Source: Nemertoderma westbladi
Taxonomy: Eukaryota; Animalia; Xenacoelomorpha
NCBI GenBank assembly: GCA_032718475.1
Contig: JAUCBJ010006967.1
Location: 1 to 64,000 of the forward strand
Reading direction: 5' to 3'
DNA: 64,000 nucleotides
Below the pieces are notes generated by a model, which was not told where the DNA came from, made no database searches, and saw nothing but the letters and a program-made list of their open reading frames with translations. Position numbers and translations under genes: made by a program. Each line of letters begins with the position of its first letter. Within the stretch, counting starts at the first letter, position 1. Positions 11,899 to 47,650 of this stretch are shown piece by piece.

Positions 11899-11953
11899 GC
11901 CGCTGGGGATATCCGCAATCCCCCTATTACTTTCCGTCGCCGGTTGTTGCGGT

Positions 11954-18017: not shown

Positions 18018-18322
18018 TTGTCACTCGGGTGATAAATAATTGTCACCCGGGTGATAAATAATTGTCACCCGGGTGATAAATAATTGTCACCCGGGTGATA
18101 AATAATTGTCACCCGGGTGATAAATAATTGTCACCCGGGTGATAAATAATTGTCACCCGGGTGATAAATAATTGTCACCCGGGTGATAAATAATTGTCAC
18201 ACGGGTGATAAATAATTGTCACCCGGGGGACAAATAATTGTCACCCGGGTGATAAATAATTGTCACCCGGGTGATAAATAATTGTCACCCGGGTGATAAA
18301 TAATTGTCACCCGGGTGACAAA
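18018..18322. repeat. About 14 copies of a 22-bp tandem repeat with palindromic core TGTCACCCGGGTGATA; probably the subterminal array of the IS3EU-like element (terminus near 18364)
   Basis: Direct reading of the unit TGTCACCCGGGTGATAAATAAT; followed by ...CAGCCACGGTA. Confidence 0.9.
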
Positions 18323-20284
18323 TATGAAAAAACTGAAATTAAGTGGCCACAATCAGCCACGGTAGAATATAAATAGGTCAAATTAACAATATATCAGAGG
18401 TCACATAAACTTGTTTCGCAACCGACCCATATACTATATTCCACGAATTTATGTCAGTTGGTCATGTCGTACCTTCAATGGCTTTAATTAAGTGATGAAA
18501 TTCCTCCATTATGTAATCTCCCCCCTGGTTCCTCCCAGGAGACAATGTGCGTGACATTGCCTCGGTTTGTCTGATGTGTTCCAGAATATTGTCTGTCAAG
18601 CGAAGATGTTGGGTGAGATAATATGATGAGATCATCTGATAGGTTGGATGTCTCATAGTAAAAAAAATTGATGAAAATTTCACCATGGCTGCCATATTCT
18701 TTCTTACCCCAATTCGAAATAATTTTATACTGAAGCAGGTTTCAAAAATAAAAAAGAATATGAACCGATAACTCTGACATGCTTGAGACAAAAATTCAGT
18801 GAGATTTGATGAGTTAAAGTCATTACAATAAGCAGAGTTGTGGGATTTCATTTGGAAAGCAAAATATTTCTCCTCATAGCCGAATCGAATTATATGATTT
18901 TAACATATTGTGTTCGTAATGACCCCATCCGGGTCGCAATAATAGTTTATCACACCACCCGGGCTGTCCTTTCAGTGATCTTAAAGACAGTCACATGGGA
19001 TTGCCATCAAATATGACCTCGGTCCATTTCCTAACTTCAGTTTGTAGGGCCGAGTTTAATGTTTGTTCAACGCAGTTTTTAACGGCACTGTAACTGCAAG
19101 GATCCTCCATAAGTGGTTTTCGAATTTGAACTCTCACGGATTCTCATAACATTTATCCTAAAAATACAATAGTTAGTATATTAGTACTAGTATATTTATT
19201 TGTCATTTTCATTATTTTCATCAATCATTTTGTAGTATATGCCATTTATGACATGTTACAAATTTAGATCTGATAGATTCTGATAGAAGAAACATGAAAA
19301 TATATTATATTTATTTATTAATAATATATTCCACATGCAGTTGAGCCAATACGACATGTATTAGGGTGAAAGGGTGTAAGTAAATAAACGGGGTGCCCCC
19401 GAATCATAATCGGTAATGTAATGTACATAATCAATAATTAATCTTTACTGTATATTCAGTGTTGGAAGTACTGCATAGTAAAATAAACCGTAGTTTCCCC
19501 AAATTACTTTGTTCCCGAATCTAAATCTAACATTATTTTTATATTTAATTTTAGAATTTGAATCCTCTTTCAACTTTGACAAGTCCAGCAACCTTACTCT
19601 TACTCTGTCGACACACATAATTATAACTCGGTATGTACCTGATAGCAACTCTTGTGTTGTATAATTTGTCACCAAACTACAATTTTCAATTCCCAATTCT
19701 TCTGTGAGGGGATTGGGGAAATAATAATTTGTTCCCTGGGCTAAATAAAGCCCAGATTTTTACAAATTATAGTAAAACTAAAATTTTTTCACCAATAATT
19801 CAACTAGAGTTTACATCTTTAAAATTTTAGTCATCGTAGAGGAAGGAATAATAGAGATAGAGAATAAATAAATGAAGAGAATAATAATAGAAGAGAAGAT
19901 GAGAATAGTAAATAAGATGAGAAAGAGAGCGGATGACAAATCCAAGAGAAGATACGAGACGAGACGAGACAAGGAGGAGGAGGAATGTGAATACCATGCC
20001 ACCGATTTAACCCTTATTCTAAGGTGAGAGTTCGGCATACTATATATTACACAAGAGGATGGAGGGGGTGAAGGTAAAGGGGGGGGGGGGGGGGGGGTGT
20101 TAAGTATATAGTGTGAATTGTGAATGTGGGGGGGGGGGGGGGGGTATGAAGAATAGTTTAAGTAACAGTATGAAAATCGCGAGAAATAGATGGATAAGTA
20201 TTAATAATTCAGCTGATATTTTTCCTGATTAATACTCAATATATTACTGAGCTCCCATCTGAGTTCGTTACTGCTAAAGGGCTT

Positions 20285-21730: not shown

Positions 21731-22766
21731 ATTTTACATTGTGTATTGCTAAATATATTATAATAATATAATATAATAATAATAAATAATATATTATATA
21801 TTATTTATAATTTATTTTTTATTATGTATTATTATATTATATATTATTTATATTATATAATAATAATATAATATAGTAATATAATATAATATATTATAAT
21901 ATAATATATTTAATAAACTATAATGTAATAATAACTATAATTATAATAATTTTATCATTTATTTGTGCAATAATGATAATATAATGTTTCGTATTGTGCA
22001 GAACTAGACCTCAAGGCCTCGTTGGCGGCTCCTTAACCAACTTTTCATATTAATTCTAATTGAATATAGTAAAATTTATAGCTTGGTCATTTTCTGACCC
22101 ATCCGCTGTTAATGAATACGTGACCCAACCGCTCAGGCTGGGTTAAGGGGGAACTAAAATAACAAACGTAACATAAAGTACTTTAATTTATAGATTTTAT
22201 TTCATAACAGGCCCTACAGTGCCGAACGCACATATGATTACATATAGGCCTAATATGATTACATAACTACTACTCACACATTCGGTACTACCCTAGCGAA
22301 TAAAAGTAAAGTTAATGTAGTAAATAAATATTGTGACTAAGTTTATATAAATTACTTATCTTTTACTTCTATCCTTAAAAAAAGGCTCGCATATCAGGTT
22401 TGATTAAAAATTAGTTAACACTTAACAAGCGATAGCCAAGTCTGCAATACAGTTTCAATTTCCTATTCCATCTAACATTATTTATCGTTTAGGACAAACA
22501 TCCCATCATCATAAAGGGCCCATCCCAGATAGCCCAATAACAAGGAAGCAGCCCCTATGGGAATTTAAGACGGAATTCAAGAAGAATGAAAAAGCGAGGG
22601 TATGTATGTACCGTACATCACACATACTTGTACAGTATAGATAAAAATATTATTTATGTCCTCTTGTTTTACTCATTATGCCCCTTTTATTATTTTAAAT
22701 GTCCCCCTTTTTTATTATATGATGTTGACAACTACGACTTTAGAGGGATTGTAATATTCATATTAA

Positions 22767-25738
22767 CCCTTTAATGCCCACTGTTGTTTGTAAACAACAT
22801 AAATATAATTGGTTCCCTCATGAACAAAATTCAATTTCCTGTTTTGTGATTGGGTGCTATAAATAGCATAATGATTGTAGTTTGTAATTAAACCTGATCT
22901 GACAGAGTCAATACGAAGCCGATAGCCATAGATCGACTTTAAAGATGAAATAGCGAATCAGGTACCACTATACGTTAGAGCGCTTCTTTCTAGGCCATAA
23001 CGTATGTTGTTTTCAACATAATAAGAGCTACGAAAAATATGCAGATAGCCTATAGCGTGTTAACTACCTACTAATCGTTACCCCATAGCAGAATGTATGT
23101 TTAGGGGGGTGTGGTGCATTGTTTTCTACATGTTGTTACAGAACAACATTGGTCATTCATGGAAGTAAATTTGGGACATTACCTGTAACACCATGTAAAA
23201 AGCAGCCTTAGTAATTGGACACTGTAGAGTTGTATCTCAGGTCAAATATATTATTATAAATTAAAATTTATCTTCTCAAAAGTCTATTTGTCTGTCTGTC
23301 TGCCTCTTACTCATGTTGTTTCACTTTATTTTGACTTTCTAATTTTTATACTGAAGAGATACAGTATGAGTCGATTTAACCCTAACCTCTCGCTAATGTT
23401 ATCAGACCTGAGAACAGTAAATCGATTAGATATTGCTGATAGTGATAGTGCAGAGAATTCACTATCAATTCCTTCTGGTAGATTTTATAAACGAAGTCGT
23501 GTTCGGTTTGACGAAACCCGTGGTATGGTGGAAGAAGATGAGATAGTCGGCGTGGAGTTACCTGGGGGGAACAAAAGTGGGTCTGAGAGTGAAGATGACG
23601 ATGAATTGGAAGATGTAACACAGTTTGATATTAATGTTGATGGTGGTGGTGATATTACGGATGAGATTTCTGCAGATGATATAGTCGATCTCGCCGCAGC
23701 TCTTGATGATATAGCTTCCAAATCGAATGAAGAGATACAGGATAGTAGTTACAGGTGGCGAAAGCAGGATAGTGAACCTGTAGACAGTGAGTTTATTGGG
23801 GATGCGTTTCCTAATCCACCTCCTGAACCAAATGAGCCACTGGAATACTTTAGATATTTCTTTCGTGAGTCACTCGTTAAGCATTTAGCAGAGCAGACCA
23901 ATTTATATTCGACAGTCCAAACGAAAACGTCAAAGTGTATAAATGTTTCTGAGAATGAAATTGATCAATTTCTCGGAATTTTAATTCTAATGGGTGTAAT
24001 TAAATATCCTCAATATCGAATGTATTGGGCTTATGAAACTCGCGTCTCTGCAATAGCGGATACTATGAGTCGACTACGGTTTGAAACTATTAAGAGATAT
24101 TTTCACTGCAATGATATCACAATGGAACCACCAGCTGGTGATCCTCATTCAGATAAATTATATAAAGTTAGACCAATGCTTGATTCTGTGCGAGAGATGT
24201 GCAGAAGTGTTTCTGCTGAAGAGAGACATTCTGTGGACGAACAGATGATCCCATCGAAAACGCGGGCAAAAGTGGGCATGCGCCAATACATGCCCAAGAA
24301 ACCGATCAAGTGGGGTTTTAAGGTTTGGGCTCGCTGTGGAGTCAGTGGGTTGATATACGATTTCGAAATATACTGTGGGAAATGCACGGACCAGGATGAA
24401 ATTGTTGGATTGGGTAGTGGTGGGAATGTAGTGGTCAGATTAACTAAGACGTTACAACGTGGACTGGGGCATAAGGTATATTTCGATAATTTGTTTACGT
24501 CCATCGATTTAGTTAAATATCTTATCGATAGGGGTATCTGGTCAATTGGTACCATTCGTAGTAATCGGTTACGGGGTGCGAACAAACTTCTTTTAACTGA
24601 GAAGGAAATGAGGAAGCAAGGAAGAGGTGCTCTAGATTGGAGAGTAGAAGTGAATAGAAAGGTGACGCTTGTGAAGTGGTTAGATAATGGTGTCGTTCAG
24701 CTGGTATCTAGTTACATTGGACATGACTTGGGTACACCAGCCAATAGATGGTCAGCGACAGATAAGAAATATATTAGTATTGATAGACCTCGCATGGTAG
24801 AGGAATACAATTTGTGTATGGGAGGGGTGGATTTGTGCGATATGTTACTTTCTTTATACCGTATACAGCTGAAACGTAGAAAGTGGTATATGCCAATCGT
24901 ACATTATTTGATTGGAATTTCGGTGACCAATGGATGGTTGCTCTATCGCCGTCACTGTAATCAACTCTCTATTGTCAAGAAGAAGCAGTTAGCACTAATT
25001 CGTTTCCAAACTATTATAGCCCATAGTTTAATGAAGTCTGGAAAGGCAACATGTACTTCGAAGCGAGGCCGCCCATCTATCTCTACCAATGAACCCATTA
25101 CCATTCCACCCAAGAAATCCAAATCTACTGTTCCAATCCCAGTTAACGATGTTCGGTATGATCTGACAGACCACTTCCCTAAATTTATGACGAATCAAGG
25201 TCGATGTCGCTATTGTGTTAACGGTTATTCGCATTGGCAATGTACAAAGTGTGGAGTTCTATTGTGCATTGTAAAAAACAAAAACTGTTTTTATCTGTTT
25301 CACCATCGGAAATGAAAACTATTTTTGATAAATGTTTTATTCAAATAAATAAATCACAGTCAATATACTGTATTTTCTAATAATACTTTTTTGACAGACA
25401 GACGAACTGACAAGAAATGAACATGAGACTGAGACAGACTGGTACTTGCATCGACTAGGTGGACACGATTCGATCAAGTCTTGATATCATATAACTAAAA
25501 AATCATTGACACATATGAGATAATCTAGGGTGTTATTTATACCAATAATCTAGGGTGTGATTTATACCACAAATACCCAATGTTGTTCAGGAACAACGAC
25601 CCTCTATACGTAAAACCCGTGGGTGAATTTATTAATTTTTTTTTTTATTATCCCAAATGGGCTGCAAGATGACAATAATGACAATTATGCATGAAAATAT
25701 TTTTTCCATCATAAATACTTAATTCGGGTATTAAAGGG
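22767..25738 (+). mobile_element. Complete piggyBac transposon (2972 bp)
   Basis: TTAA TSDs at 22763-66 and 25739-42; 13-bp TIRs CCCTTTAATGCCC / GGGTATTAAAGGG with one mismatch; intact transposase. Confidence 0.95.
23366..25315 (+). CDS. piggyBac transposase (PGBD3-like), intact DDD triad and Cys-rich C-terminus
   Basis: SVDEQMIP, QYMPKKPIKWGFK, YFDNLFTS, YNLCMGGVDLCD, CRYC...CTKC..LC..CF..FH; first ATG at 23366. Confidence 0.95.
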   Translation: MSRFNPNLSLMLSDLRTVNRLDIADSDSAENSLSIPSGRFYKRSRVRFDETRGMVEEDEIVGVELPGGNKSGSESEDDDELEDVTQFDINVDGGGDITDEISADDIVDLAAALDDIASKSNEEIQDSSYRWRKQDSEPVDSEFIGDAFPNPPPEPNEPLEYFRYFFRESLVKHLAEQTNLYSTVQTKTSKCINVSENEIDQFLGILILMGVIKYPQYRMYWAYETRVSAIADTMSRLRFETIKRYFHCNDITMEPPAGDPHSDKLYKVRPMLDSVREMCRSVSAEERHSVDEQMIPSKTRAKVGMRQYMPKKPIKWGFKVWARCGVSGLIYDFEIYCGKCTDQDEIVGLGSGGNVVVRLTKTLQRGLGHKVYFDNLFTSIDLVKYLIDRGIWSIGTIRSNRLRGANKLLLTEKEMRKQGRGALDWRVEVNRKVTLVKWLDNGVVQLVSSYIGHDLGTPANRWSATDKKYISIDRPRMVEEYNLCMGGVDLCDMLLSLYRIQLKRRKWYMPIVHYLIGISVTNGWLLYRRHCNQLSIVKKKQLALIRFQTIIAHSLMKSGKATCTSKRGRPSISTNEPITIPPKKSKSTVPIPVNDVRYDLTDHFPKFMTNQGRCRYCVNGYSHWQCTKCGVLLCIVKNKNCFYLFHHRK

Positions 25739-26024
25739 TTAAAACAATAAAATAGGACATGGGGTCTATTCCCTCAGATACTACCTAGCAATTTCCTGAC
25801 ATCTGCGCAATTTTGTTTAAAAATCTGATCATATATCTGTACATACCGGTAGGTGCTAATTGGGGTTGGTTGCATTCAGTTGGGAAATCATGTTTATGCA
25901 TTTGGGGCTGATGGTAACATACATTGGGGGTGGGTGGTTTCAACTCTGTTCGGTGGTACGGTAGGATTTCTAATTTATTGGTCATTATCTTAATTTAGTG
26001 GTGCAGTTTTGTTAGGGTAGAGGT

Positions 26025-26096
26025 GGGGTTCGTGGCACACTGCTGATGAGGAGAACCACGAATCCCAGGGTTCAGTGTTTAAATCTCCGAAACCCT
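26025..26096 (+). ncRNA. Hammerhead ribozyme candidate 1 (substrate strand nested in loop II; predicted GUU cleavage after 26072)
   Basis: CTGATGA 26043-49 and GAAA 26089-92. Stem II GGAGA/TCTCC; stem I ACACTG/CAGTGT; stem III AGGG-T/A-CCCT; extra 11-bp helix 26025-35 with 26056-66. Confidence 0.75.
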
Positions 26097-26877
26097 TTTA
26101 TTTTTATAAAATTTATTACTTAGACTTACCTTTTTCGGCGGACAAAATGTCCTATATTTTTCTTAATTTATGGGATAGCCTATTTCGTGCAATACTTACC
26201 GGAACCTGTAGTTACTGTATGGTTTGGTGCAATTTTTCTTGTGGTAGTTGGGTTGGGTTTATGTAGCCCCTTTTTTATTACTTTTTTGTAATAAAAGAGT
26301 CTTTTTACTCATTACACACCTGGTTGTACAGTACCTTCTACTGCACCGCATCAGCATAATTAATTAACTAGTTTCAGAAGTTCAGTAATGAGGCCTCTTT
26401 TGGTACGACAACTATTTGATTAATATATTCATGTTATAGGCAAATAATTATTCCAACCGGACTGGATGCGGTATGTTGTGCCTCTTCAATGATAATGGAA
26501 AAATAGATGCTGTAGAAGGACCGGATTCTGGGTTCCAAAAGCTAAACACATTTATCATTGGAAACAATAGTCGTATTGATGTGAGTAGTGTGGGGTACTG
26601 TTATATTAACGTTAGACTGAGGTACAATAATAATACTATTTTTATGCCTAATTTACTAAATGTAAGACTGCGTTCGTTATAACTAAGTTTATATGAAAAT
26701 ATTAAAATTATTATGTCCAAATGTAGGAGGTGAGTGCTTCTCTAGGAAAAGTCGTGGCTGAGATCGATAAAGATAGATCATGTGGGGTACGGCGATCACT
26801 TAACTACTCACCATCGAATGTCCAAAAACCTTTAAAAAGAAAGCCGTCCAAAGGAAATCGTTGTTGTTTGTGCAGCA

Positions 26878-28215
26878 ATGTGTTTAATAGGAGATAATCC
26901 TGCTGCTGCTCTAATAAGCGGCTTCAAAGAAAGCGCTTCAGCAGTTTGCTTTTGTAGAAGCTGTATGGTAAAAAAAGGCGAAATTGAAGATCATTTTGAG
27001 GCTGATTCTCTAAATATCAGAACAGAAGCCGATTATACTGAGCAACTTATGGCAGTCACAGATCCCAAGTTACCAATTGCTGAGCAAAAAGAAAATTCCA
27101 TAAAATACGGTATAAATTTCCCAAGTATATTATCGGATATCCCATACTTTAATATTACAAGTTGTGTCATTCATGACTTTCATCATGATATGTTGGAAGG
27201 TGTTGTAAGTGCTGAAATTAAGTTGCTTTTACGCTATGCTGTTTGCGAACGGAAATTTCTAGGAATTGACGATCTGAACAGACGGATATTTTCAAACAAT
27301 TTTTCTGAAAACGAAAAAAAAGACATTCCTTGTCGAATAGAACTGTCAAAGTTGCAATCGGCTGAGACATATTCCCTGAGACAAACTGCTATACAAATGC
27401 TAATTTTGATGAGAATTCTCCCTGTTTTGTTAGGCGAATTTTTTAGTGATCTGAACAACCATTGGAATTGCTTCATTAAACTATACGAGATTGTTGAGCT
27501 ATGTTTACAATATTCAATAAGTACAAATGAACTTGTATATTTAGAATATTTAATCGAAACTCATTGCACACTTTTTTTCTTAACCTATGGACTGACTTTC
27601 CCAAAGCTGCATTACATGATGCACATTGTTAGAGATATTAAGAATTTTGGACCACCAAGATGTCACTGGGCAATGCGATTTGAAGGTCACCATAACGTTC
27701 TAAAAAAGTGGGTGGTTATTCAAAAAAATTTCAAAAATATACCATTATATTTAACCAAGCGCCATCAAGAAGGTGTTGCTCATTCACTCACTGTCAACAG
27801 AACGGGCTTTTTATATGAACGAATTATTGGTGTACATCATGTACCAAAGTTATCCTTTGCCGGAGATTGTAGATTCGAACGCTATTCAAAAATAACACAT
27901 TATGGTAATAGTTTAATTGCAAACCGCAGCGTTATCCCAGTGCCAGTTTCGTTTGATAACGAGACTGAACTTCCGAAATTTATGATTGTGAGTGATATTT
28001 ATTTGTTTGAATCTGGCAGGGATTGTCTTATCATTTGCAATGAGCTCATTACTAGTAGCTATCTGCCTCATATTGGCTGTTATACTTTAATAGAGCCGAA
28101 TATTAAAAAGTCAGTTTCTGTATGGTATTCATCTCTGAGTGAACCTGGTGAACTTCGTATACTCCGCTATCAAACCTCATATGTAGTCCGTTATCGATTT
28201 CGGAGCTTTTCTTAA
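26878..28215 (+). CDS. CACTA/EnSpm-type transposase, C-terminal portion
   Basis: LIGDNPAA..ISGF, FCRSC, HDFHHDMLEGV, PKLHYMMH, FGPP...WAMRFEGHH. Confidence 0.85.
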   Translation: MCLIGDNPAAALISGFKESASAVCFCRSCMVKKGEIEDHFEADSLNIRTEADYTEQLMAVTDPKLPIAEQKENSIKYGINFPSILSDIPYFNITSCVIHDFHHDMLEGVVSAEIKLLLRYAVCERKFLGIDDLNRRIFSNNFSENEKKDIPCRIELSKLQSAETYSLRQTAIQMLILMRILPVLLGEFFSDLNNHWNCFIKLYEIVELCLQYSISTNELVYLEYLIETHCTLFFLTYGLTFPKLHYMMHIVRDIKNFGPPRCHWAMRFEGHHNVLKKWVVIQKNFKNIPLYLTKRHQEGVAHSLTVNRTGFLYERIIGVHHVPKLSFAGDCRFERYSKITHYGNSLIANRSVIPVPVSFDNETELPKFMIVSDIYLFESGRDCLIICNELITSSYLPHIGCYTLIEPNIKKSVSVWYSSLSEPGELRILRYQTSYVVRYRFRSFS

Positions 28216-28454
28216 ATTTGTGTTGTAAGTCGAGTGTGGGAGAGGGCAAGAGTGTGTGGTGTGTTTATATTATAATTTTGTGTTCTGTGTTTATAATTTT
28301 GTGTTGTGTGTTTATAATTGTGTGTTGTGTGTTTATAAGTGTGTGTTTGTGTGCATTGTGTTGTGTATATGGTATGGTATATTGTATTTTGTTTATAATT
28401 ACAAATTTTTCATTGTGTTTTCCAACACTAACTGAAATCCATTAAATTGAAACG

Positions 28455-29786
28455 ATGCCTATATGCGGTGTCAATGGTTGCACAGAGGAGATTGAAGAGG
28501 ACTTTATTGCATGTCCTGTATGTGGGGCAAGTAAAGACCGTACAAGTGTGGAGGAGCTATGTTGCGGTAAAGTGGTTAATCCAAAGTGGATACAATGTCC
28601 AAGGTGTTTAAAGGCTTTAAACGTTGCAGCTGGGCCTGTAGAACCTCCCAGTTCAAATCGATTTCAAATCGAGTCTGCTACTTCGATTGAAAAATTCAGA
28701 ACGAATTTGAAGATTGCAATGATAAATGGGAAGGAGTGTTATATATCGCCAGATTCCCCCGTTGCTGGTATTATTACTGTGCCAGTTATTAAAATTGACA
28801 TGAATACCAAAATTATACCTCATACAAGCATTTATCAGAAGTGTCTATTGACCTTTGTCAATGATTTTGAACGTAGAAATGTTACGAATTTGAGTTCAAT
28901 CGCAGCTTCTATTTGTGAAACATATCCCGAGTTTAAGCGGAAGCATAAATCCAATAAATCATCGATGTATTTGGCTCTTCAGCATGACTACGTGAACTCC
29001 CGCCACAATTACCGCAACAGAATGAAGGCGAAGGACAAGAATCCAAAAATAATTGTGGAAGGCCAGTCTGGGGGGGTGGGACAGGTTGCTGGGGACAAAT
29101 CTGCGGAACAGGTCGCTGGGGACAAATCTGTGGAACAGGTCGCTGGGGTCAAATCTGCGGAACAGGTCGCTGGGGACAAATCTGCGGAACAGGTCGCTGG
29201 GGACAAATCTGCGGAACAGGTCGCTGGGGACAAATCTGCGGAAGTTAATGTCGCTGGAACTAACAGTATATCATTGCTTGAAAATGCTGCTGTTGTTCAA
29301 GTGCAAATGGGAAGGAAAACCATAAACACCAAACCGCTACGTAATCAACCACAACGAAAAAGAAAGAAAGCAATAGTAATATCGTCATCAAGTGAAGATG
29401 ATGTTAGTGAAATGTTGTTGTTCGATAGTTCTGAAGACGATGTTGAAGAGGAGCCGGAAATACAAATGGAGGTTCAGGGAGTGAAGTCGTTGGTGTTTGC
29501 GCGCCAAATGAAATCTAAAGATTTCTGGCCAGGGAGACTGGATGATGCTCCGGATGGCTGTAAGATGCCGAAGCCAAAAGATCCATCGGATACATTTAAA
29601 TGGGTCTATTTTTATGGTAGTAATAACTACTCCTGGGTTAAGAACACTCCGGAGTATATTGTTCCTTATGTGGAAAACCGCGATCTGTTATCAGAGCCGA
29701 AACCAAGCAGTACTAACGCGTTCTTGCGCGGAACTGAGCAAATTAACGAATTATACAATTTATTCATGGAAGATAATGATGAGTGA
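28455..29786 (+). CDS. CACTA accessory ORF2: N-terminal double zinc ribbon, 9-aa repeats, C-terminal PWWP domain
   Basis: CGVNGC..CPVCG..CCG..CPRC; about six GDKSAEQVA units (27-bp repeat, 29079-29241); LVFARQMKSKDFWPGRL...WVYFYGSNNYSWV...IVPY. Confidence 0.75.
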   Translation: MPICGVNGCTEEIEEDFIACPVCGASKDRTSVEELCCGKVVNPKWIQCPRCLKALNVAAGPVEPPSSNRFQIESATSIEKFRTNLKIAMINGKECYISPDSPVAGIITVPVIKIDMNTKIIPHTSIYQKCLLTFVNDFERRNVTNLSSIAASICETYPEFKRKHKSNKSSMYLALQHDYVNSRHNYRNRMKAKDKNPKIIVEGQSGGVGQVAGDKSAEQVAGDKSVEQVAGVKSAEQVAGDKSAEQVAGDKSAEQVAGDKSAEVNVAGTNSISLLENAAVVQVQMGRKTINTKPLRNQPQRKRKKAIVISSSSEDDVSEMLLFDSSEDDVEEEPEIQMEVQGVKSLVFARQMKSKDFWPGRLDDAPDGCKMPKPKDPSDTFKWVYFYGSNNYSWVKNTPEYIVPYVENRDLLSEPKPSSTNAFLRGTEQINELYNLFMEDNDE

Positions 29787-31869: not shown

Positions 31870-34501
31870 GGGCCATGAGATTTGAAGCCCAGCATGGTGT
31901 ACTAAAACGTGGCTGAAAAGCCAACAATCATATAAAAACATTCCAAAATATTTGGCAGCCAGGCATCAAGAAAATGTGTGCTATTATTTGTCTATAAACT
32001 CATCTGGTTTTTTATATGAAATTGTTCGTGGCTATAAAAAATCCCCTACATGTAGCAGATTTGGACACAATACTGACTTGCAGGCCTTCGGGAAAACTAA
32101 GTACTATAACTAAAATTATGTGTCTAACAAAAGTATGATATTTCTTGGCTTGAAAGATTCCCTTCCATTTTTTGGGCTGATTACTGAACAATACATCTAC
32201 AAAGGAGGGAAAGATTTACTTATCATGGTTCAACCTTTATTAACCGAAGGCTATTGCAGCCACATTTGCTCATATATAATATCGAATGAATTCGTGCCAA
32301 CATTGGGAGTTTGGTTATCTTCATTTGAAAATCTCCCAATAGAACTGCGGCCAAAGAGTTATAAAGAATTAATTGTGGTGAACTATAAGTTAGAGTTGTA
32401 AAATTCTTATTGTGTTTAACTTAATCTTACACTTTATTCATGGGGCCGTAATCTGAATTTATATAAATATAATTAAACCAAGTATTTGCCCGAGTAGCTA
32501 TTTCAAGTAATATAGCTCCTCGTCTTATTATCAAAAACTGTTGGTCCTAGGCTTGGTATAATATTTAAGTAATTATTATAGGTATATAGCCTAACTACGG
32601 TATATATTAGCGATATAAGACTAATTATATTATATCATGAGATCCTGCCAGTGCGGTAAATCCCTTCCTGATGGATTTCTCTTCTGCTCCGGATGTGGCA
32701 CTCCTGCTCCACCATTAATTAAAATGTGCTGTGAGATTGTTATTGGAGACGATTGGGTGCAATGCCCACGATTCCGCAAAGATGTTGTTGGCGCCATTAC
32801 ACAAGATGGAGACGACAATGTTGGGGTCGGTGGTGTTTCTAACACCCCGAGCACATCCGGAAAGCAGAACATTATTGGAAATAATCGTGAAAGTCTAATC
32901 AAAGTTGAGATAGGGGGCAGTGACTATTATCGTCCAAAGGAACTTGACACAGTTAATTATGTTCCGGTGCTGGTACTTTCTATTGGCGTCGATAAAAAGG
33001 TAGTAGCTCTAGGGGGTGCCGTCTTTAATCGCTGCATTCGGGCATTGGAGAAGGATTTTAGGGAGCGTGGAATTAGCAACCTAACAATAATTGCGCAGTC
33101 CGTCTGTTCCGTGTACCCTGAATTCGAGTTTCAACATTCAAACCGAAAAAGTAAATCTCAAGTGTTTCAGACGAAATTTGCTGAGTGTCTGCAGAATTAT
33201 AAGAAACGTGAGGCAAAGAAAGTACGTGAAACGGATAATATGGAAACAAACCTTCTTGAGAAAGCGGTCAGTTTGGGCGAGGAGGGTGCCACTACTAAGA
33301 AACGAAATATAACGACAAATAAAAACACAAATAAACGCGCCCGACACCATGCCTTTGTTATAGACGAAGCTGTCGAAGTTCTGGAAAGTGACGAAAGTGA
33401 GGAGATGTCCGGTGATGAGGGTGAATCATCTGGAATTGATACCGGTAGTTTAATCGAAGCGAAAAAATTAGGAGAATATGTGTGGGCCAAACTATCCAAG
33501 AAGGATATATTTTGACCCAGCAAAGTGTGCGAACCCTATGGTAAACCGAGAAGCATTCATCGTCCCCACTGGGTATATTTTTTCGGAACCCATAATTATG
33601 GTTGGGTCAGCAGTGGCCTCATAATAGCGTATGAAGCAGACAATAACCCCGACAAAGAGCGGAAGAATAAGGGGAAGAAGTTTGAGCAAGGAGTACTGGA
33701 ACTGGAATTGGAGAGGGTTGGGCCACAGGAGTCATAGGGTATCGCCTATGTAAATGTTTATACCTGTTATGTTTACCTGATAATATAATTAATGATATTA
33801 TTAATTAGTTGAATATTGAGAATGGAGACGGTTGAATAAGAATTAATAATATGCTGAATTATATAAACTATTATTATCTGATTTGGGGGTGGGGGGGTTA
33901 ATAAACCATGGTTATTTTCAGAGAACCACTGGTAATATTGTGAATAAATCACGGTTATTTTTGGAAAATCGGCGTTTGTGTTTTAATAAACCACGGTTAT
34001 TTTCGGAAAACCACTGGTAATATTGTGAATAAACCACGGTTACTTTCGGAAAACCACTGGTAATATTGTGAATAAACCACGGTAATAATTGGAGAATCGG
34101 CGTTTGTGTTTTAATAAACCATGGTTATTTTCGGAAAACCACTGGTAATATTGTGAATAAACCACGGTTATAATTGGAGAATAGGCGTTTGTGTTTTAAG
34201 AAACCACGGTTACTTTCGGAAAACCACTGGTAATATTGTGAATAAACCACGGTTATAATTGGAGAATCGGCGTTTGTGTTTTAAGAAACCATGGTTATTT
34301 TTAGAAAACGGCCGTCGGTTACGGTGAATAAACCGCGGTTTCTTTTTTGACAACCCTTAATTTATAACCCTGGTTATTTATATGAAAAAACCGCCGGTTC
34401 CCCGAAAAAACCCTGGTTAAAATGCAACAAAAACCACCGGCGGTTTTTTCAGGAAATTTGGCGGTTTTTTAAGGTAAAACAGGGGTTATGTTTTTTCAGT
34501 G
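31870..34501 (+). mobile_element. CACTA/EnSpm-like copy 2 (diverged, 5'-truncated): transposase relic, PWWP ORF2, subterminal repeats, CAGTG end
   Basis: WAMRFEAQHGVLK at about 31870; AAACCACGGT-rich repeats at 33900-34330; terminus TTTTTTCAGTG at 34501. Confidence 0.7.
32637..33737 (+). pseudogene. ORF2 of CACTA copy 2: double zinc ribbon plus PWWP, with a nonsense codon at the PWWP Trp
   Basis: CQCG..FCSGCG..CC..WVQCPR; YVWAKLSKKDIF*PSKV...HWVYFFGTHNYGWV..IIAY. The frame continues through the TGA at 33513-15. Confidence 0.75.
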
Positions 34502-36153: not shown

Positions 36154-36646
36154 TCAACCGCCTTATCATGTAAAAACCAAAAGTATTAGTCAGGCAACTC
36201 GTTTTAGATCATGAACAACATTGCATTGCATTCCCAAACTTTCGCCAAATCCGGGCATCAATAAACGAGATTACGGATTTTATCAACGACAAAGGTGGAT
36301 GGAATATAGTAGTATGGTACAGTACAAGCCGGGAACTACCAACCAGGACGGAGATACTATCCCTGTTCCAATAAAAGTATTACATCCATCATCAGTGGTC
36401 CCGGCTTGCAAACCCAGTGTATAACCAACCCAGTATTTACTCTTCAACATTCCCCCACCACCTCCTCCTGCTGCCACCCGAGTTAACCAGCCGCGCCAGC
36501 CGCCAGGTTATTATCCCAAAGAGACAAGGACCTCCACAATAGAGAAACTTTAAGTAGGCCTACATTTCTAACTTAGAACATTTCGAACTATCATATCAAA
36601 ATATGCTTTCTTTATATTTTAATATTGACATTTTTGAAGTTCGAAT

Positions 36647-37701
36647 ATGAAGGACTCTAAGGGTATCATGAGAAGTTATTGTAAAGAATGTGGAGCAGAT
36701 GAATGCTCTGAGTACTTACTACCAGAGAATATTGGTATAACGCAGGTGTGTACATACTGTGGTTGTCCTCCCACTAAGCATCATCGGGAAGATGTCTCAT
36801 CTCATGAAGGTCAACCTATTACACCTCAGCCTGATATTAATACTCCTGCAAACCAACCAAATGCCGGTAATACACCTTTGTTGAATATACCTGTTGAACC
36901 TGTGTTATTTGATACACCCATCTACCATCATCATCAACTACTACTTCATCTATAAATAAGCCTTGCCATTCAAATTTGAATATTTTGGACCACGTCCTTT
37001 CTGAAAGCCCAGAGGGGAAATTATTGTTGAAGTCCAAGACAGCAGGGTTGACTGAGAAGCAGCGGAAGAATTTAGTTTCCTTGGTGGTATCATATCTCAT
37101 GAAAGGTACAGACACCGGTTTGGTTTCTAAGGAACTGTTTAAAGAGGCAGCTTCTCAAATAGCTTCTGTATTTCAATTAGAAAAACCAGCAACATACTAT
37201 TATTATAAATCAGTTGAGAAGGTATCAGATGGTAAAAAATATAACACATTTGTTGCCTCAGGAAAGCTGTACTGGAAATACTTAACTGGAAATAAAAACC
37301 GCTTGTTAGCTATTTCTATTTCAAACCCGAAAGAAACTGTTGACGTTGTTGCTGGTAGTTCTAGCAAACTGGGTGTCCTTGACACATGGAATGTCGACGA
37401 GTTGTATCAATCTGTAGAAGATCAACTCAGAAATCTTCGCCACCATGGGTATAATAAAGCTGATCATGAGGCAACTGTCCTTTACCGGCTAGTCGCTATT
37501 TATCGCAATTTGTTTGATCTCAACAAGTATCCGTATTTCAAAGATGATAGTGTTGTCTATGATTGTATAAATACTGATTTTGTTTATCTAATGAAATTAA
37601 AGAATGCAAGTGATGTAAATTGCACTGCATTATTTGAGGCCCCGTTTGAGGAAATATGCGGCAAGTGTCTCAATATGTCTCAACTATTCACAGTTGTGTA
37701 A
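36647..37701 (+). pseudogene. Fragment resembling the accessory ORF of animal EnSpm/CACTA elements, with N-terminal Cys/His finger
   Basis: CKEC..C...CTYCGC...H; VLSESPEGKLLL, LTEKQRKNLVSLVV, IASVF.LEK..TYY, SGKLYWKY; frameshift near 36950. Confidence 0.5.
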
Positions 37702-37759: not shown

Positions 37760-40420
37760 ATAAAATTACACCAAACTGCAACAGAAACAGTTGAAGATTT
37801 TGCTGATAAATTAAAAAGAGTTGCACGCCATGCATTATCTTCCCCAGACACAGAACAGGCAGAGGCTTCGTGCAGAGACACAAAGCAGGATACTAGACCA
37901 ATTTTTGTATGGTCTCCATATAACGATTCGCTGCAAGGTTTTAGAACATGTAGCGCATGAGTCCCTTTAGAAAACGTCATTTCAGAGGCTAAAATGATAG
38001 AAGCTAGTGTACGTGTAGATAACCCTATGTTAAAAGCACCGCTTACGGAAGATGATATTGAACGTATCATTCAGAAGTCTAGAGAAAAAAATCATTACAG
38101 ATCACCATCAAATCATAAAACTGAATATAATTTGGAAAGTATCTCTCAGTTAGAGGAAAGCGTTAATAAATTATCTAAACAGGTAAGTGAACTTACAAGT
38201 AAGTTTAACGAACTATCACAAGTAAGTTTAACGAACTATCTGGTGAAATTAACCCAACTGTTATGAATATGGTAGCTGTCACATTTAAGGAATTTATGTC
38301 CCCAGCTCATAAGACAAAAGGTAATATTTGACTCGGCTGATAGAAGTAATAGAAGAAGAGAATAGTCACAAGAACGAGGTAACATGGATAACAAACACGA
38401 TAATAAATGGGAAAACCACAGCAAATCCTTCCAAAACAATTCAGTTCGGTCAAGTTTACTTCAAGTAAATTCGACTCAGGAGTTAATTATGGAAGTACTT
38501 GTTGAAAGTAACCCAGTTGAAGCAAATTAATGTAGATAGAGGGTCACAAGTTACTATTATCACCGAAGAGTTCCTTAAGGGGGGGGTACACCCCCCCTCA
38601 GGTCAAAATTTTCATTTTTTGTTTTTTTATTTCATCTAGAGTAGAATTTAATGCGGATTTCAAATCTGGAAACGGCTTAGCGAGATCTCTTTTACTTCTC
38701 GAGTAATGGCTGGTTTTCCGTCTGTATGTCTGTCTGTCTGTCCATCGAAATATTAAAAAGGGCATAAAATAAGCAATCTGAAATGTTTACTGTTAGGATT
38801 TTTCTTAATGTCGATGTCTGTTTTAATATTTGGAATTATCTAATCACTATGTCTGTATCTCAGTCTGTCTCTCAGTTTGTCTGTCTGTTTGTATGTCTGT
38901 CTGTCTGTCAACATGTCCGTCAAATTTTAATTAATATATATTTAATAGATATTTGTGAGTTTTGTATTACATATTGAACAGTTGTCTAATGGACTAGTTG
39001 TCTACTAGTAATAACAAATGTGAACCATCATATAACAATAGCTAGTAATAATTATTCTGGGAAACAACCATAAACTTATTTTTTTTTAATTCCGCAGGCT
39101 CTGAGAATAATTCACGTGCTGCGCGAAGTCTTCATGTGCAGCATGAACTTTTCATGTGCCGCGTGAAGGCTTCTCATTCTGATCAAAAAGCTTTCCGAGG
39201 TGCTCGATTAATTAACGTGCTTTATGAAGAATTTAAGTGCTACGTGAAACCTTCACCTGCTGCGCAAATGTCTCACGTGCTGCGCGAAGGTTTCACGTGC
39301 TGCGCAAAGCTTAATGTTCTGTGTAAAGGCTTATTATAAAATTATGTGGAAATTTTTATATAATTTTGAATGTTTCTTAAGGTTATCTCATTATTCCATG
39401 ACTATTTATTACTAAATGACGAAATAGTATGCGATCAAATCAATACGCCAAAATGTAATTTGTTCACGTGCTGCGCGAAGTGTTTTTTGGCAAGCACTCT
39501 AAAATTATTTTAACAGGTTGTTAAAAGTGGGTAGGGGTTTTTTTGAACCAAATTTCATGAAATCCATTGAGAAATCACAAAATATGGATAGGGGATAACC
39601 AATGGGAAAAGAAAAGGAGATACCAGTACTGAAAATAGCGGGAACATTTGAAATATATTGTTCTTAAACTTTAAATGCGTTTATCTCGGAATTGTATTTT
39701 TCACATTCAAAATACTACTACTCAGCCATTTCTTAACCAATTTTCGAAATTTTTTTTTTGTTTGATTTCTTTTCGGGTTTTGATCAAAAGTTATCGGTTA
39801 GAATTTTGAATTGTGCCATATTAATTTCTTGAAATTAGTTAATATCTATTAAGTAATAATTAATATTAGTTAATAATATTTAAAAAATATTTAAGACCTA
39901 AATAAAAAATGTAACCGATAAGTTTTGTGGAGCCGAGGATGCTGATTCAGAAAAACCAAGTTTCGAAAATTTTCGCCCAAAATTGTGAGACTAGTAGTGT
40001 TTTTAGTGAAATTAACAATTTCGCTGGTGGCCGCTAGAGGGCGACGCAAATTTGAAAATTTTTTTTTTGAACCCAATCTTTGGCCATATGTTAATCCCCC
40101 GAAAGGTATAAAATATACAAAATTACACACAAGCAGAAATTATAGCCATTTGCAAAAAAGGTCCATAGGGGGGTGTACCCCCCCCCTTAATAAAAATATT
40201 AGAAACACACTTTACATGTATCCTGGAGAAACATTAACAACATTAGGAGGTGATAAAGTAGATAGTCTAGGTAGAACGAAATTAAATATTCATTGTGGAA
40301 ATAATTCGTGGACAGGTCTTGTGCACGTAGTCCGTACTTTGAATTGTAGTACAAATTTGCTGTTGGATATAGATAGCATTATTACACTAAATATACTAGA
40401 AATGGGATTGAAAATTATTA
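37760..40420 (+). pseudogene. Degraded LTR-retroelement (Gypsy-like) gag-protease relic interrupted by the first Kolobok-like copy
   Basis: QTATETVEDFADKLKR; VDRGSQVTII before the TTAA site, continuing LTTLGGDKV..LG...LLLDID after it. Confidence 0.5.
38579..40186 (+). mobile_element. Non-autonomous Kolobok-like element, copy A (1.6 kb)
   Basis: TTAA TSD; GG...CC termini with TIR G8TACACCCCCC; internal CACGTGCTGCGCGAAG repeats. Confidence 0.85.
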
Positions 40421-41352: not shown

Positions 41353-41783
41353 GTGAGTAATAAATAAATAGGAAATGTACCTTATGTGTAAAGTAACCTC
41401 TTGAATACTGAGAATCATTATTGGTTTGATGGTATCTTAGTGTCCTAACTGCGGTGTTTAATACATACCGCGTGCAAGTTCCTGTTCTTACGGGAGGAGC
41501 GCCTATATAGGTTTCCTCCAGGTTTTCTTCGGTTATTTTTTCTATCAATTTCCTTTAATCAAATAAATCACAGAAGTTTTATAACATAACGAGCAAGATA
41601 GCGAGATTTAAGTTGCGACTCTGAATAACTTGATATTATATTTCTGACTTTGTATTTTTCTATTTTAAAGCTTATTTATCTCCTATCTTGCAGCTCAATT
41701 ATTTTGGTAAAAGTATGGTATCATTATTGCATATTGATTGAATATACCATACTTTCAAGGATAGTGATCCAGGTAAAGTTTAA

Positions 41784-43387
41784 GGGGGGGGTACACCCCC
41801 CTATGGACCTTTTTTGCAAATGGCTATAATTTCTGCTTGTGTGTAATTTTGTATATTTTATACCTTTCGGGGGATTAACATATGGCCAAAGATTGGGTTC
41901 AAAAAAAAAATTTTCAAATTTGCGTCGCCCTCTAGCGGCCACCAGCGAAATTGTTAATTTCACTAAAAACACTACTAGTCTCACAATTTTGGGCGAAAAT
42001 TTTCGAAACTTGGTTTTTCTGAATCAGCATCCTCGGCTCCACAAAACTTATCGGTTACATTTTTTATTTAGGTCTTAAATATTTTTTAAATATTATTAAC
42101 TAATATTAATTATTACTTAATAGATATTAACTAATTTCAAGAAATTAATATGGCACAATTCAAAATTCTAACCGATAACTTTTGATCAAAACCCGAAAAG
42201 AAATCAAACAAAAAAAAAATTTCGAAAATTGGTTAAGAAATGGCTGAGTAGTAGTATTTTGAATGTGAAAAATACAATTCCGAGATAAACGCATTTAAAG
42301 TTTAAGAACAATATATTTCAAATGTTCCCGCTATTTTCAGTACTGGTATCTCCTTTTCTTTTCCCATTGGTTATCCCCTATCCATATTTTGTGATTTCTC
42401 AATGGATTTCATGAAATTTGGTTCAAAAAAAACCCTACCCACTTTTAACAACCTGTTAAAATAATTTTAGAGTGCTTGCCAACAAACACTTCGCGCAGCA
42501 CGTGAACAAATTACATTTTGGCGTATTGATTTGATCGCATACTATTTCGTCATTTAGTAATAAATAGTCATGGAATAATGAGATAACCTTAAGATCGTTC
42601 AAAATTATATAAAAATTTCCACATAATTTTATAATAAGCCTTTACACAGAACATTAAGCTTTGCGCAGCACGTGAAACCTTCGCGCAGCACGTGAGACAT
42701 TTGCGCAGCAGGTGAAGGTTTCACGTAGCACTTAAATTCTTCATAAAGCACGTTAATTAATCGAGCACCTCGGAAAGCTTTTTGATCAGAATGAGAAGCC
42801 TTCACGCGGCACATGAAAAGTTCATACTGCACATGAAGACTTCGCGCAGCACGTGAATTATTCTCAGAGCCTGCGGAATTTAAAAAAATAAGTTTATATT
42901 TGTTTCCCAGAATAATTATTACTAGCTATGTTATATGATGGTTCACATTTGTTATTACCAGTAGACAACTAGTCCATTAGACAACTGTTCAATATGTAAT
43001 ACAAAACTCACAAATATCTATTAAATATATATTAATTAAAATTTGACGGACATGTTGACAGACAGACATACATACAAACAGACAGACAAACTGAGAGACA
43101 GACTGAGATACAGACTTAGTGATTAGATAATTCCAAATATTAAAACAGACATCGACATTAAGAAAAATCCTAACAGTAAACATTTCAGATTGCTTATTTT
43201 ATGCCCTTTTTAATATTTCGATGGACAGACAGACAGACATACAGACGGAAAACCAGCCATTACTCGAGAAGTAAAAGAGATCTCGCTAAGCCGTTTCCAG
43301 ATTTGAAATCCGCATTAAATTCTACTCTAGATGAAATAAAAAAACAAAAAATGAAAATTTTGACCTGAGGGGGGGTGTACCCCCCCC
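41784..43387 (-). mobile_element. Non-autonomous Kolobok-like element, copy B (inverted, nearly identical to copy A)
   Basis: TTAA TSD, same TIRs, reverse complement of 38579-40186 with few substitutions. Confidence 0.88.
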
Positions 43388-43820
43388 TTAAATCAGAAGT
43401 TCTCAATCTTGAAGATGATATTATGGAGGTTCCACCTGAACCAGAACCATGCCTTGATCCACTTGGAGAACTTAAGTCCTTCTTATCTTTTCATCAACCT
43501 GTTTTTTGAAGGTAAAGAGATGTATATCAATGGGTTGACATTTATTTCCAATTTCAACCGAGTTGAAATTTAAAACTGTTTTTTAAATTTCAACTTTTAA
43601 GTTATAAAGTTTAAATAAATAATAATAAATACAAATTGTAAAATCTAATATATTTTTTTTATACTGTGTGTGTTTGCCCCAGCAACCTACCAGTTTTTCC
43701 ATTGGTATCACTGCTTTACTTAGGGTTCCAATTTTCTGTGGTCTGATGTCTTTTTGAGGAGTTCATGGTGCGATTGTTTAGGTCATTGGTGCAATATAGA
43801 TATGCTTTGGATAATCCTTT

Positions 43821-43888
43821 GTCCAGCTGATGAGGTGTCGAGAATACCGCGTACTGGGTCTCAGACACCGAAACGCAACCATATTCTT
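43821..43888 (+). ncRNA. Hammerhead ribozyme candidate 2 (same nested topology; predicted GUA cleavage after 43853)
   Basis: CTGATGA 43827-33 and GAAA 43870-73. Stem II GGTGTC/GACACC; stem I TCCAG/CTGGG; stem III GCG-T/A-CGC; helix GAGAATA/TATTCTT. Confidence 0.68.
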
Positions 43889-45275
43889 GATACAATTAAT
43901 TATTTATTCCCGAGTTCTACCCCTTTATGGCGACAAAATGTCATATATTTTTCTACAGAATATAGGCTTAGCTTTTGTGCAGTATACTACTGGTATCATT
44001 TAGTGTATGACAGTTAGGTCAGGGTTAGGGTGCGATACATACCTGTATGTTGAGCATGTTTCAATTTATTTGTATATGTCGTTTTTGTTTGTATTATTTG
44101 TGTCGTAGTACTTTGTTAACTACATTATTAACATTACAATAAAATAAAATAACTTACAAAGACGAGATGCAAGTAGTATAGAATGCTATGACACGGCACC
44201 AAGGTCACCCGTAGTCCATCATTACCATCCATTTCTGGTACTGCAGCCAATCAGAAGCCACCATTTCAACCTTTACCAGTGGTCGTTATTATTTCAACCA
44301 ATCAGATGACAGCATTTCATCCGTAACCATGGTAAATTCTCAAGTTCCCGCTTATTCCGCTAGAGGCGTTATTAGTCCCCCGACGCTAGTACTGCATCCA
44401 ATCACCAACCTTTATTTTACAGGTGTTCGAGTGTCTACACTTAGCATCAGGTAACGTCTACTATTTTTCAAATCGCTATTTTTCACCAACCATTGCATAT
44501 TCATCTTCACATAGCCTAACCTCACGATGCATGGCTAGCCCCCATCCCATCATCGCTACTCAATCCACAGCTGTTACCCACCCACCAACCAACCAATCAA
44601 CGGCGATGTTTGCCTAACCCTACGGTTATTCGCCTTTTCACCACGTTACCACCACTACCGCGCAACCAACCACTGTATACTGTATATGCTGACAACGTGG
44701 CCACCAACTACACACATCATGCATATATTATATTATATTGATTGCCAACTCCACGACTGCTGTCGCCAATCCATTCAACCAAGCAACCTACCAGTCCAAC
44801 AGTAGGATACGTGTTGAAATTCCGCCACGTTTCCGGCTACACGTATACGAACATTTCCATAGTTATTTCCTATTCACGCAACCAACCAACCACTGTATAC
44901 TGTATATGCTGACAACGTGGCCACCAACTACACGCATCATGCATATATTATATTGATTGCCAACTCCACGACTGCTGTCGCCAAATCAACAAACCAAGCA
45001 GTATGATACATGAGATTCCGTCAGGTTCCAGCTACGCGTATACGAGCATTAGTGATTATTATTACGCAATAATTTTTTTGTTTATACAGTAGTTACCCAC
45101 CAGCTAATCAACCAATCAATAAACCGAATTTAGGCTATTTCTCAGTTTAAGACCTGTATTATTTTTGAAAATATATATATAATCTCTTGCTTTAATCGCA
45201 ATTAATCATTTGTAATGGTTTTAGTTTAAAAGTTTTTACTTTGTTTGTTTGATTTACAATAAAATAAATTAAATA

Positions 45276-45722: not shown

Positions 45723-45887
45723 CTTTTCCCTCTATATTATAAATATTTTATGATTATATATAAAATTTTGTTGTTTTTAAATAATCGAAAATTGTAGTAG
45801 TATTTGTATATACAGTATAACAGTTTTGTTTGTTGTTGTTGTTGTGTATTGTGGTAATTATTTTCAATTTACTTTAAAATTTGGAAA

Positions 45888-47223: not shown

Positions 47224-47233
47224 TTAATATTTT

Positions 47234-47644: not shown

Positions 47645-47650
47645 GTAATA

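What the first reader, a model, noticed from the sequence alone, without database searches (positions are those of the whole stretch)
26025..26096. Hammerhead ribozyme with an unusual pseudoknotted topology: the cleavage strand sits inside loop II
Seen: a perfect core (CUGAUGA 26043-49, GAAA 26089-92) closes a 5-bp stem II (26050-54/26084-88). The best partner for both stems I and III lies inside that stem's loop. AGGG-U (26067-71) pairs with A-CCCU (26092-96), H17 is U26072, and CAGUGU (26073-78) pairs perfectly with ACACUG (26037-42). The 12-nt linker from stem II to stem III forms an 11-bp helix (26056-66) with GGGGUUCGUGG (26025-35), and a 5-nt linker returns from stem I to stem II. Established: types I, II and III are circular permutations with simple nested stems, and the distal ends of stems I and II lie close together in 3D. 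Inference: this strand order is none of the three types, yet looks geometrically plausible, because the short linker spans I to II and the extra helix spans II to III. It may be an undescribed hammerhead architecture missed by standard descriptors, or it may work as a dimer.
Basis: partly seen in the sequence, partly recalled or inferred. Interest (0 to 1): 0.92.

Follow-up and report, generated by a model that had tools for sequence, protein, structure and literature searches.

The report
Knotted hammerhead ribozyme in animal repeats
This is a hammerhead RNA motif, predicted to cut itself, whose parts come in a rare knotted order (type CSG) published from only two soil-DNA sequences; here it sits in two high-copy repeats of an animal genome that are likely Penelope-like jumping elements, which would give the rare form a natural home.

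Summary
The strand order is not new: it is type CSG of Eckert et al. 2023 (PMC10085705), shown to cleave, with the same extra 5' helix, but published from two unique soil-metagenome sequences and no known genome. What is new is the setting. A second CSG hammerhead lies at 43810-43876; 7 of 14 aligned stem pairs differ and none breaks. Both sit in related high-copy repeats of an animal genome, with 5'-truncation joints and opposite-strand joints like those of Penelope-like elements; no element protein is in the window. By eye, eight published Naiad consensus ends, apparently all eight nematode families, hold a complete CSG hammerhead, although Naiads were reported to lack canonical ones. Cleavage, expression and Naiad membership are untested. 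This scan noted a Naiad-hammerhead link before on other genomes (107 notes), mostly a different split-core wiring. Verdict: new member of a known kind, in a newly recognised host.

The parts
26025..26035 (+). [quoted passage not shown]
   Evidence: 11 pairs with 26056-66, -18.7 kcal/mol, probability 1.00
26037..26042 (+). stem I, 5' strand
   Evidence: 6 WC pairs with 26073-78
26043..26049 (+). core CUGAUGA (C3-A9), block C
   Evidence: sequence
26050..26054 (+). stem II, 5' strand
   Evidence: 5 WC pairs with 26084-88
26056..26066 (+). 3' strand of P0, abutting stem III with no spacer
26067..26072 (+). stem III 5' strand, U16.1 (26071) and H17 (U26072); predicted cut between 26072 and 26073 (block S)
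   Evidence: cut site by analogy with CSG-1/-2
26073..26078 (+). stem I, 3' strand
26079..26083 (+). 5-nt linker from stem I to stem II (UUAAA; a UUAA linker is also in the published CSG pair)
26084..26096 (+). stem II 3' strand, core GAAA (26089-92), stem III 3' strand (block G)
25741..26267 (+). host repeat 1: high-copy dispersed element, cut short at 26267 in this copy and joined internally at 25790/25791
   Evidence: summed contig depth 5,542-49,051 in runs X1-X3 against 8-296 in the right flank; loose ends and joints
25741..25790 (.). about 50-nt end segment that other copies join to several internal positions or to the opposite strand; likely a tail or inverted 3' end of the Penelope-like kind (inferred)
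   Evidence: joints to 26066, 26110, 26153, 26206 and an opposite-strand joint 25788/26259, each in 1-2 contigs
26141..26162 (+). motif shared with repeat 2 (43932-43953), about 45-55 nt behind each ribozyme
43810..43876 (+). second type-CSG hammerhead: stem I 43821-26/43854-59, core 43827-33, stem II 43834-39/43864-69, stem III 43849-51/43874-76, predicted cut after A43853; P0 43810-16/43842-48 has two mismatches in this copy
   Evidence: majority alleles in four runs pair at both mismatches
43625..44100 (+). host repeat 2: high-copy element related to repeat 1 (66% over 195 nt, E 9e-11), ending in a T run in other copies; left edge approximate

Best explanation
It is a type-CSG (non-circularly permuted, doubly pseudoknotted) hammerhead motif, predicted to cut its own RNA after U26072, inside a high-copy repeat that is likely the 3' end or a non-coding derivative of a Penelope-like retroelement, probably of the Naiad lineage. 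Shown: the sequence and pairings, the match to the published CSG layout, a second diverged copy with covarying stems, and high copy number of both host repeats. Inferred from established hammerhead chemistry: Mg2+-dependent cleavage to a 2',3'-cyclic phosphate and a 5'-OH, with G12 (26089) and G8 (26048) as general base and acid. Inferred for folding: P0 forms first during transcription and pins the far ends of stems I and II together, replacing the loop I-loop II contact of ordinary hammerheads; the 5-nt linker ties the other strands of I and II; P0 then runs beside the II/III stack down to stem III. Inferred for biology: as for other Penelope-like elements, it cuts tandem or read-through transcripts into unit RNAs. 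Because copies keep sequence on both sides of the cut site, the copied template must be uncut or re-ligated RNA. Step odds: CSG fold 0.97, family cleaves 0.85, Penelope-like host 0.75, Naiad lineage 0.55.
For: Same block order, same P0 and near-equal spacings as CSG-1/-2, which cleave at 0.004 and 0.026 per min. Sites 1 and 2: of 14 aligned pairs in stems I-III, 5 change on both sides, 2 on one side, 7 are the same and 0 break. P0 of site 2 has another sequence, and its two mismatches fall exactly where other copies differ: 43811 G in 61-100% and 43844 T in 95-99% of depth in the four runs. No listed variant at 5% or more lies in 26025-26096, of 17 substitutions and 7 shown indels in 25791-26267; this is weak (P 0.02 by site, 0.2 by cluster). 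Long contigs of 401, 1031 and 1557 nt match repeat 1 only across the ribozyme, at about 87%, and contigs of 2595 and 2626 nt match repeat 2 only around its ribozyme. Truncation joints, a short end segment and opposite-strand joints fit what Craig et al. describe for Penelope-like insertions. Eight Naiad consensus ends read by eye as complete CSG hammerheads with P0. All named relatives of two window transposon proteins are animal.
Against: No cleavage or RNA data; no RNA holder was listed. No Penelope-type reverse transcriptase or GIY-YIG motif in any frame of the window, and the shared downstream motif has 0 matches in Craig's consensus files, so the Naiad link rests on RNA architecture and insertion pattern alone. 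Each joint was seen in only 1-2 contigs per run. Nested folding programs form P0 and stem III but not stems I and II, and AGGG at 26014-17 competes for stem III in the longer fold. H17 is U, a slower triplet in minimal hammerheads (recalled). In run X4, 43846 A>T (552 of 699 depth) would break one P0 pair unless a partner change sits in the 107 rows not shown. For a Poseidon element the ribozyme was dispensable for insertion in vitro, needed protein to cut, and left no RNA-seq ends at the cut site (PMC11167929, passages).
Confidence: 0.7

Rival explanations
1. A working CSG hammerhead, but in a stand-alone retrozyme- or SINE-like element, or in a derivative of a non-Naiad element, that spreads through circular or linear RNA and only borrows a reverse transcriptase.
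For: No coding frame in either repeat; units of about 500 nt fall in the range given for non-LTR retrozymes (51-972 bp; bioRxiv 10.64898/2026.07.22.740005, parts 1-2 of 5); the ribozyme lies mid-element.
Against: No tandem arrangement in the window; described animal retrozymes carry type I hammerheads and are themselves argued to derive from Penelope-like elements; no tRNA-derived head; other copies of repeat 1 run on past both breakpoints.
Confidence: 0.15
2. The RNA cuts as a dimer: one molecule gives the C and G blocks with stem II and another gives the cleavage strand, as small Penelope-associated hammerheads are known to do (recalled).
For: A two-strand fold gains about 8 kcal/mol over two monomers (-65.4 against 2 x -28.6, a nested model that cannot score the monomer's pseudoknots); P0 abuts stem III with no spacer, a geometry Eckert et al. 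flag as not obviously compatible with the crystal structure.
Against: P0 and the short I-II linker are kept in both families, in the published pair and in eight Naiad ends, which a dimer would not need; there is no palindromic stem III; CSG-1/-2 cleave during transcription.
Confidence: 0.08
3. The family once had an active ribozyme but this copy, or the whole family, no longer cleaves: P0 plus stem III or the upstream AGGG trap it.
For: Predicted ensembles lack stems I and II; the window's site-2 copy has two P0 mismatches.
Against: Site 1 has a perfect core and stems and matches the majority of its family throughout the ribozyme; these programs cannot model pseudoknots.
Confidence: 0.06
4. 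Chance arrangement of short motifs.
For: The bare core pattern occurs 6 times in the window against 4.2 expected.
Against: 0 strict hits in 3454 shuffles, two hits in homologous repeats, covariation and a published precedent.
Confidence: 0.01

Closest known systems
Type-CSG hammerhead ribozymes CSG-1 and CSG-2 (Eckert, Friedrich, Weinberg, Weinberg 2023, PMC10085705; seen: main text parts 1-6 of 8 and all 28 supplement places for 'CSG'; figures not held)
   Same: Block order C-S-G, intact CUGAUGA and GAAA core, G10.1-C11.1, extra helix from the 5' flank to the II-III linker, short UUAA-type linker from stem I to II, 13 nt between the cut-site triplet plus C1.1 and the last two stem II bases.
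   Different: Published from 5 sequences (2 unique) in soil metagenome DNA with no host; P0 8 bp there, 11 bp here with no spacer to stem III; GUU cut triplet here, GUC there; here in high-copy repeats of an animal genome.
Naiad Penelope-like elements, 'HHR_core' and 'HHR_half_core' cases (Craig et al. 2021, PMC8557442; seen: passages of main text and preprint, supplement part 1 and term searches, not the whole FASTA)
   Same: 3' non-coding position, T-rich ends, truncated and inverted insertions with a short tail, high copy number; eight consensus ends read by eye as full CSG hammerheads with P0.
   Different: The authors report no canonical hammerhead and did not fold these cores. No Naiad protein or DNA similarity was found in the window. 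Coral and octopus Naiads seen in the same files use an S-G-C order with a detached stem II strand instead.
Type-SGC hammerheads (HRIMA-1 and variants, 583 sequences, same paper)
   Same: Same cyclic order of blocks (CSG and SGC are circular permutations of each other), same short I-II linker and joining helix.
   Different: Chain opens at another point; found in metatranscriptomes.
Type I hammerheads of canonical Penelope-like elements and non-LTR retrozymes
   Same: Same catalytic core; ribozyme in the terminal repeat of a retroelement.
   Different: Nested C-G-S order without pseudoknots, often a tiny stem III, often tandem arrays.

Membership tests
Hammerhead ribozyme, type CSG | Invariant core CUGAnGA, GAAA, UH with A15.1-U16.1 | tested here: met
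   both sites
Hammerhead ribozyme, type CSG | [quoted passage not shown] | tested here: met
   against the definition
Hammerhead ribozyme, type CSG | [quoted passage not shown] | tested here: met
   11 bp at site 1; 7 bp in majority alleles of family 2, 5 of 7 in the window copy
Hammerhead ribozyme, type CSG | Covariation in the stems | tested here: met
   5 double-sided, 2 single-sided, 0 broken of 14 pairs between two families; only two sequences, no formal statistic
Hammerhead ribozyme, type CSG | Site-specific self-cleavage, lost in a G5 mutant | not testable with these tools
   shown only for CSG-1/-2
Hammerhead types I, II, III (circular permutations) | Nested three-way junction, orders CGS, GSC or SCG | tested here: not met
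   no such hit in the window; no Rfam hammerhead match
Penelope-like elements (any clade) | 5'-truncated, partly tandem or inverted insertions with a 30-40 nt tail | tested here: inconclusive
   matching joints, each in 1-2 contigs per run; no whole genome is held
Penelope-like elements (any clade) | Hammerhead in the terminal (pseudo-LTR) region | tested here: met
   ribozyme about 170-220 nt before the visible 3' end of each repeat
Naiad clade | N-terminal GIY-YIG plus RT frame with CxC and DKA motifs | tested here: inconclusive
   no such motif in six frames of the window, as expected for truncated or non-coding copies; full-length copies could not be fetched
Naiad clade | DNA similarity to a published Naiad 3' region | tested here: inconclusive
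   one 11-nt motif searched, 0 matches; no alignment to the published consensus sequences was run
Non-LTR retrozyme | Head-to-tail tandem units each with a type I hammerhead | tested here: not met
   single dispersed copies, type CSG

The most novel reading that the evidence does not exclude
Type CSG is not a two-sequence curiosity but the standard ribozyme of a branch of Naiad retroelements (apparently all eight published nematode families) and of their short derivatives in other animal genomes such as this one, present in very many copies. It is part of the 'missing' Naiad hammerhead, the soil-DNA examples came from animal retroelements, and tandem pseudo-LTRs supply a route between CSG and SGC orders, which are circular permutations of each other.
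Probability: 0.55. Interest if true: 0.75.

Novelty: new member of a known kind. Interest (0 to 1): 0.58.

Why it matters
Eckert et al. called the case for type CSG weaker because they had two similar sequences and no host. Two covarying repeat families in one animal window, plus eight published Naiad ends, would settle that it is a real, selected fold and tell where it lives. It would also change the statement that Naiads spread without hammerheads, and turn Craig et al.'s unexplained 'half cores' into testable ribozymes: 3 of their 8 half-core families read as CSG. The 11-bp P0 joined directly to stem III makes site 1 a good candidate for the structure that is still lacking.

Tried and rejected
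Whole genome: none held, so no genome-wide census. RNA: no RNA holder listed among 6 runs; no evidence on expression either way; no place where many contigs begin or end. Two contigs, probably one locus, begin at 26076 near the predicted cut: too few to read. These scans used narrow patterns, and the metagenome scan did not return the published CSG-1/-2 (all 78 contigs listed were over 1 kb), so it lacks a positive control. Rfam at E up to 10 gave only sub-threshold unrelated matches. Host phylum: best named relatives are 28-35% identical and spread over crustaceans, fish, cnidarians and insects; not resolved, so I cannot say whether the host is a nematode. A type III reading through GUA 26017-19 was rejected (no stem I). 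A tRNA-derived SINE was rejected. Print searches for a CSG-Naiad or CSG-animal link returned only the papers cited; the library lacks most subscription journals, and figure pages of both supplements hold no text. Published Naiad sequences were read by eye only, so no covariance model or alignment with them was made.

Full report
Observation. A pair-by-pair check gives stem I 26037-42/26073-78 (6 WC), stem II 26050-54/26084-88 (5 WC), stem III 26067-70/26093-96 (4 WC) with U26071:A26092, H17 = U26072, a 5-nt linker, and the 11-bp helix P0 26025-35/26056-66. The bare core pattern is common (6 matches against 4.2 expected), but the full arrangement is not. A descriptor allowing all six block orders found 2 hits on both strands of the window, both C-S-G. 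In 3454 shuffles it found 73 loose hits (10 CSG) and none at the strict level, which I set after seeing the hits. Rfam does not see the motif.

The topology is published. Eckert et al. 2023 (PMC10085705; main text parts 1-6 of 8; supplement passages) split the hammerhead into blocks C, G and S and name the non-circular orders SGC, CSG and GCS. Their type CSG has this order, a helix from the 5' flank to the II-III linker and a UUAA linker. Both examples cleave at the expected site (0.004 and 0.026 per min). They had 5 sequences, 2 unique, all from soil metagenome DNA, found none in genomes of known organisms, and call the evidence for CSG weaker. Their RNAmotif limits (linker up to 10, stem III from 4 bp) miss both window copies; widening to 12 and 3 recovers them.

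A second copy. The other hit (core at 43827) has different stems: of 14 aligned pairs, 5 change on both sides, 2 on one side, 7 are the same, none breaks. The two regions are homologous from the core onward (66% over 195 nt, E 9e-11; local score 190 against 99 +/- 11, maximum 137, in 200 shuffles) and share a 22-nt motif behind the ribozyme. In the window copy P0 has two mismatches. Contigs from four runs carry G at 43811 (61-100% of depth) and T at 43844 (95-99%), which pair at exactly those two places. Against this, X4 shows 43846 A>T, which would break a P0 pair unless a hidden row compensates; 107 rows were not shown.

Host elements. Four DNA runs from at most three samples hold the region. 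Summed contig depth over 25732-26271 is 5,542-49,051 in X1-X3 against 8-296 in the right flank; one X1 contig has depth 4,354 beside flanks of 36-42. Depth is no copy number, but the step is about two orders of magnitude. Flanks before 25741 differ between contigs, other copies run on past 26267 and past the 25790/25791 joint, and the 50-nt end segment is joined in other contigs to 26066, 26110, 26153 and 26206 or to the opposite strand. No variant at 5% or more lies inside the ribozyme (0 of 17 substitutions and 7 shown indels; weak), and three long contigs match only across it. Site 2 lies in another high-depth stretch, about 43625-44100, with an opposite-strand joint in three runs and a T run at its 3' end in 5 X2 contigs. 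A piggyBac element (TTAA at 22763 and 25739) abuts repeat 1. The window is otherwise a mosaic of transposons whose named relatives are all animal; the phylum is not resolved. No Penelope-type protein motif is in the window.

The Naiad link. Craig et al. 2021 (preprint passages; PMC8557442 passages) describe Naiad insertions as 5'-truncated, partly tandem or inverted, with a 30-40 nt tail, and report no canonical hammerhead, only 'cores' and eight 'half cores' with the halves 35-50 nt apart. I searched their supplement for core words (places 1-60 of 81 for CGAAAC, which cover the Naiad file; line breaks hide some matches) and folded the passages by eye. Eight records of the 54 Naiad families end in a complete CSG hammerhead with stems I-III and P0. 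Four lie directly before the next header and so are Naiad-1, -2, -3_Nbra and Naiad_Hpol if file order follows the table; four are assigned by order alone to Ppac, Parc, Hcon and Asuum. That would be all eight nematode families, three of them flagged half-core and one core. Coral and octopus records instead show S-G-C order with a detached stem II strand. The remaining families were not resolved. This is a reading by eye, not a computed alignment. I formed the Naiad idea; searches then showed that this scan had noted a Naiad-hammerhead link on other genomes (107 notes in at least 19 genomes); the notes shown describe mostly the split-core, SGC-like wiring, not the intact-core CSG found here.

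Mechanism. Most likely the repeat RNA folds P0 first (probability 1.00 in the nested ensemble). P0 holds the far ends of stems I and II together, the short linker holds their other strands, and the ordinary hammerhead core then cuts after U26072. The chemistry follows established hammerhead knowledge; folding order and geometry are inferred. Its likely job is to cut tandem or read-through transcripts into unit RNAs. Since genomic copies keep both sides of the cut site, the copied RNA must be uncut or re-ligated. For one Poseidon element cleavage was protein-assisted and not needed for insertion in vitro (PMC11167929, passages), so the role in transposition stays open. Rivals are a stand-alone retrozyme-like host (0.15), dimeric cleavage (0.08), an inactive relic (0.06) and chance (0.01).

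Elsewhere. Narrow pattern scans found no convincing CSG in viral (0 of 76, 0 of 120, and 3 chance-like hits of 229), metagenome (0 of 78) or prokaryote (0 of 89) matches; the metagenome scan lacked a positive control. Print searches found type CSG only in Eckert et al. and no paper joining it to animals or Naiads; a 2026 paper mentions alternative permutations only by citation (PMC13725137, passages). Figure pages of the supplements could not be seen.

Verdict. Interest 0.58; the bolder reading, that CSG is the standard ribozyme of a Naiad branch, has probability 0.55 and would merit 0.75.

Noticed in passing
window 43810-43876: Second type-CSG hammerhead in a related repeat family; outside the finding's coordinates.
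   Followed up: yes
window 22763-25742: Apparently intact piggyBac element (675-aa transposase frame 23288-25315, PF13843, TTAA at both ends) inserted at the 5' edge of repeat 1.
   Followed up: partly
window 22704-22717 and 26267-26280: An identical 14-nt stretch lies 45 nt left of the piggyBac and right after repeat 1; it may be a target duplication around a larger insertion unit or chance in A/T-rich DNA.
   Followed up: no
window 26014-26018: AGGGU upstream can pair with the 3' strand of stem III and may damp cleavage; a minor allele changes 26017.
   Followed up: partly
window 43940-44009: Depth above 100,000 in three runs over the shared downstream motif, so many more families share this stretch than share either ribozyme; function unknown.
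   Followed up: no
window 26730-29786, 32637-33515, 36638-37701: Plavaka/CACTA-like transposase pieces followed by a zinc-ribbon plus PWWP frame, with two more related frames downstream.
   Followed up: partly
window 38575-40190 and 41780-43391: 1.6-kb inverted repeat at 99% identity around a 1.6-kb centre; a foldback-like element.
   Followed up: no
window 45273-52701: Polinton/adintovirus-like gene cluster: RING frame, A32-like ATPase, protein X-like frame, integrase-like frame and two capsid-like frames (the last labels are from recall).
   Followed up: no
window 464-14206 (minus strand): BEL/Pao LTR retroelement frames with a 36-nt tandem array at 3510-4185.
   Followed up: partly
window 44185-44400 and beyond: Another very high-depth repeat (up to 370,000 in X3) begins about 85 nt after repeat 2.
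   Followed up: no
window 18018-18324: Fourteen copies of a 22-nt near-palindromic unit.
   Followed up: no
PMC8557442 supplement, Naiad file: Coral, octopus and some other Naiad ends show hammerhead blocks in S-G-C order with the 5' strand of stem II detached from CUGAnGA, the split-core form in this scan's earlier notes.
   Followed up: partly
L024, L031, L033, L358: Ordinary type I or type II hammerhead-like folds in viral contigs, met while filtering pattern hits.
   Followed up: no
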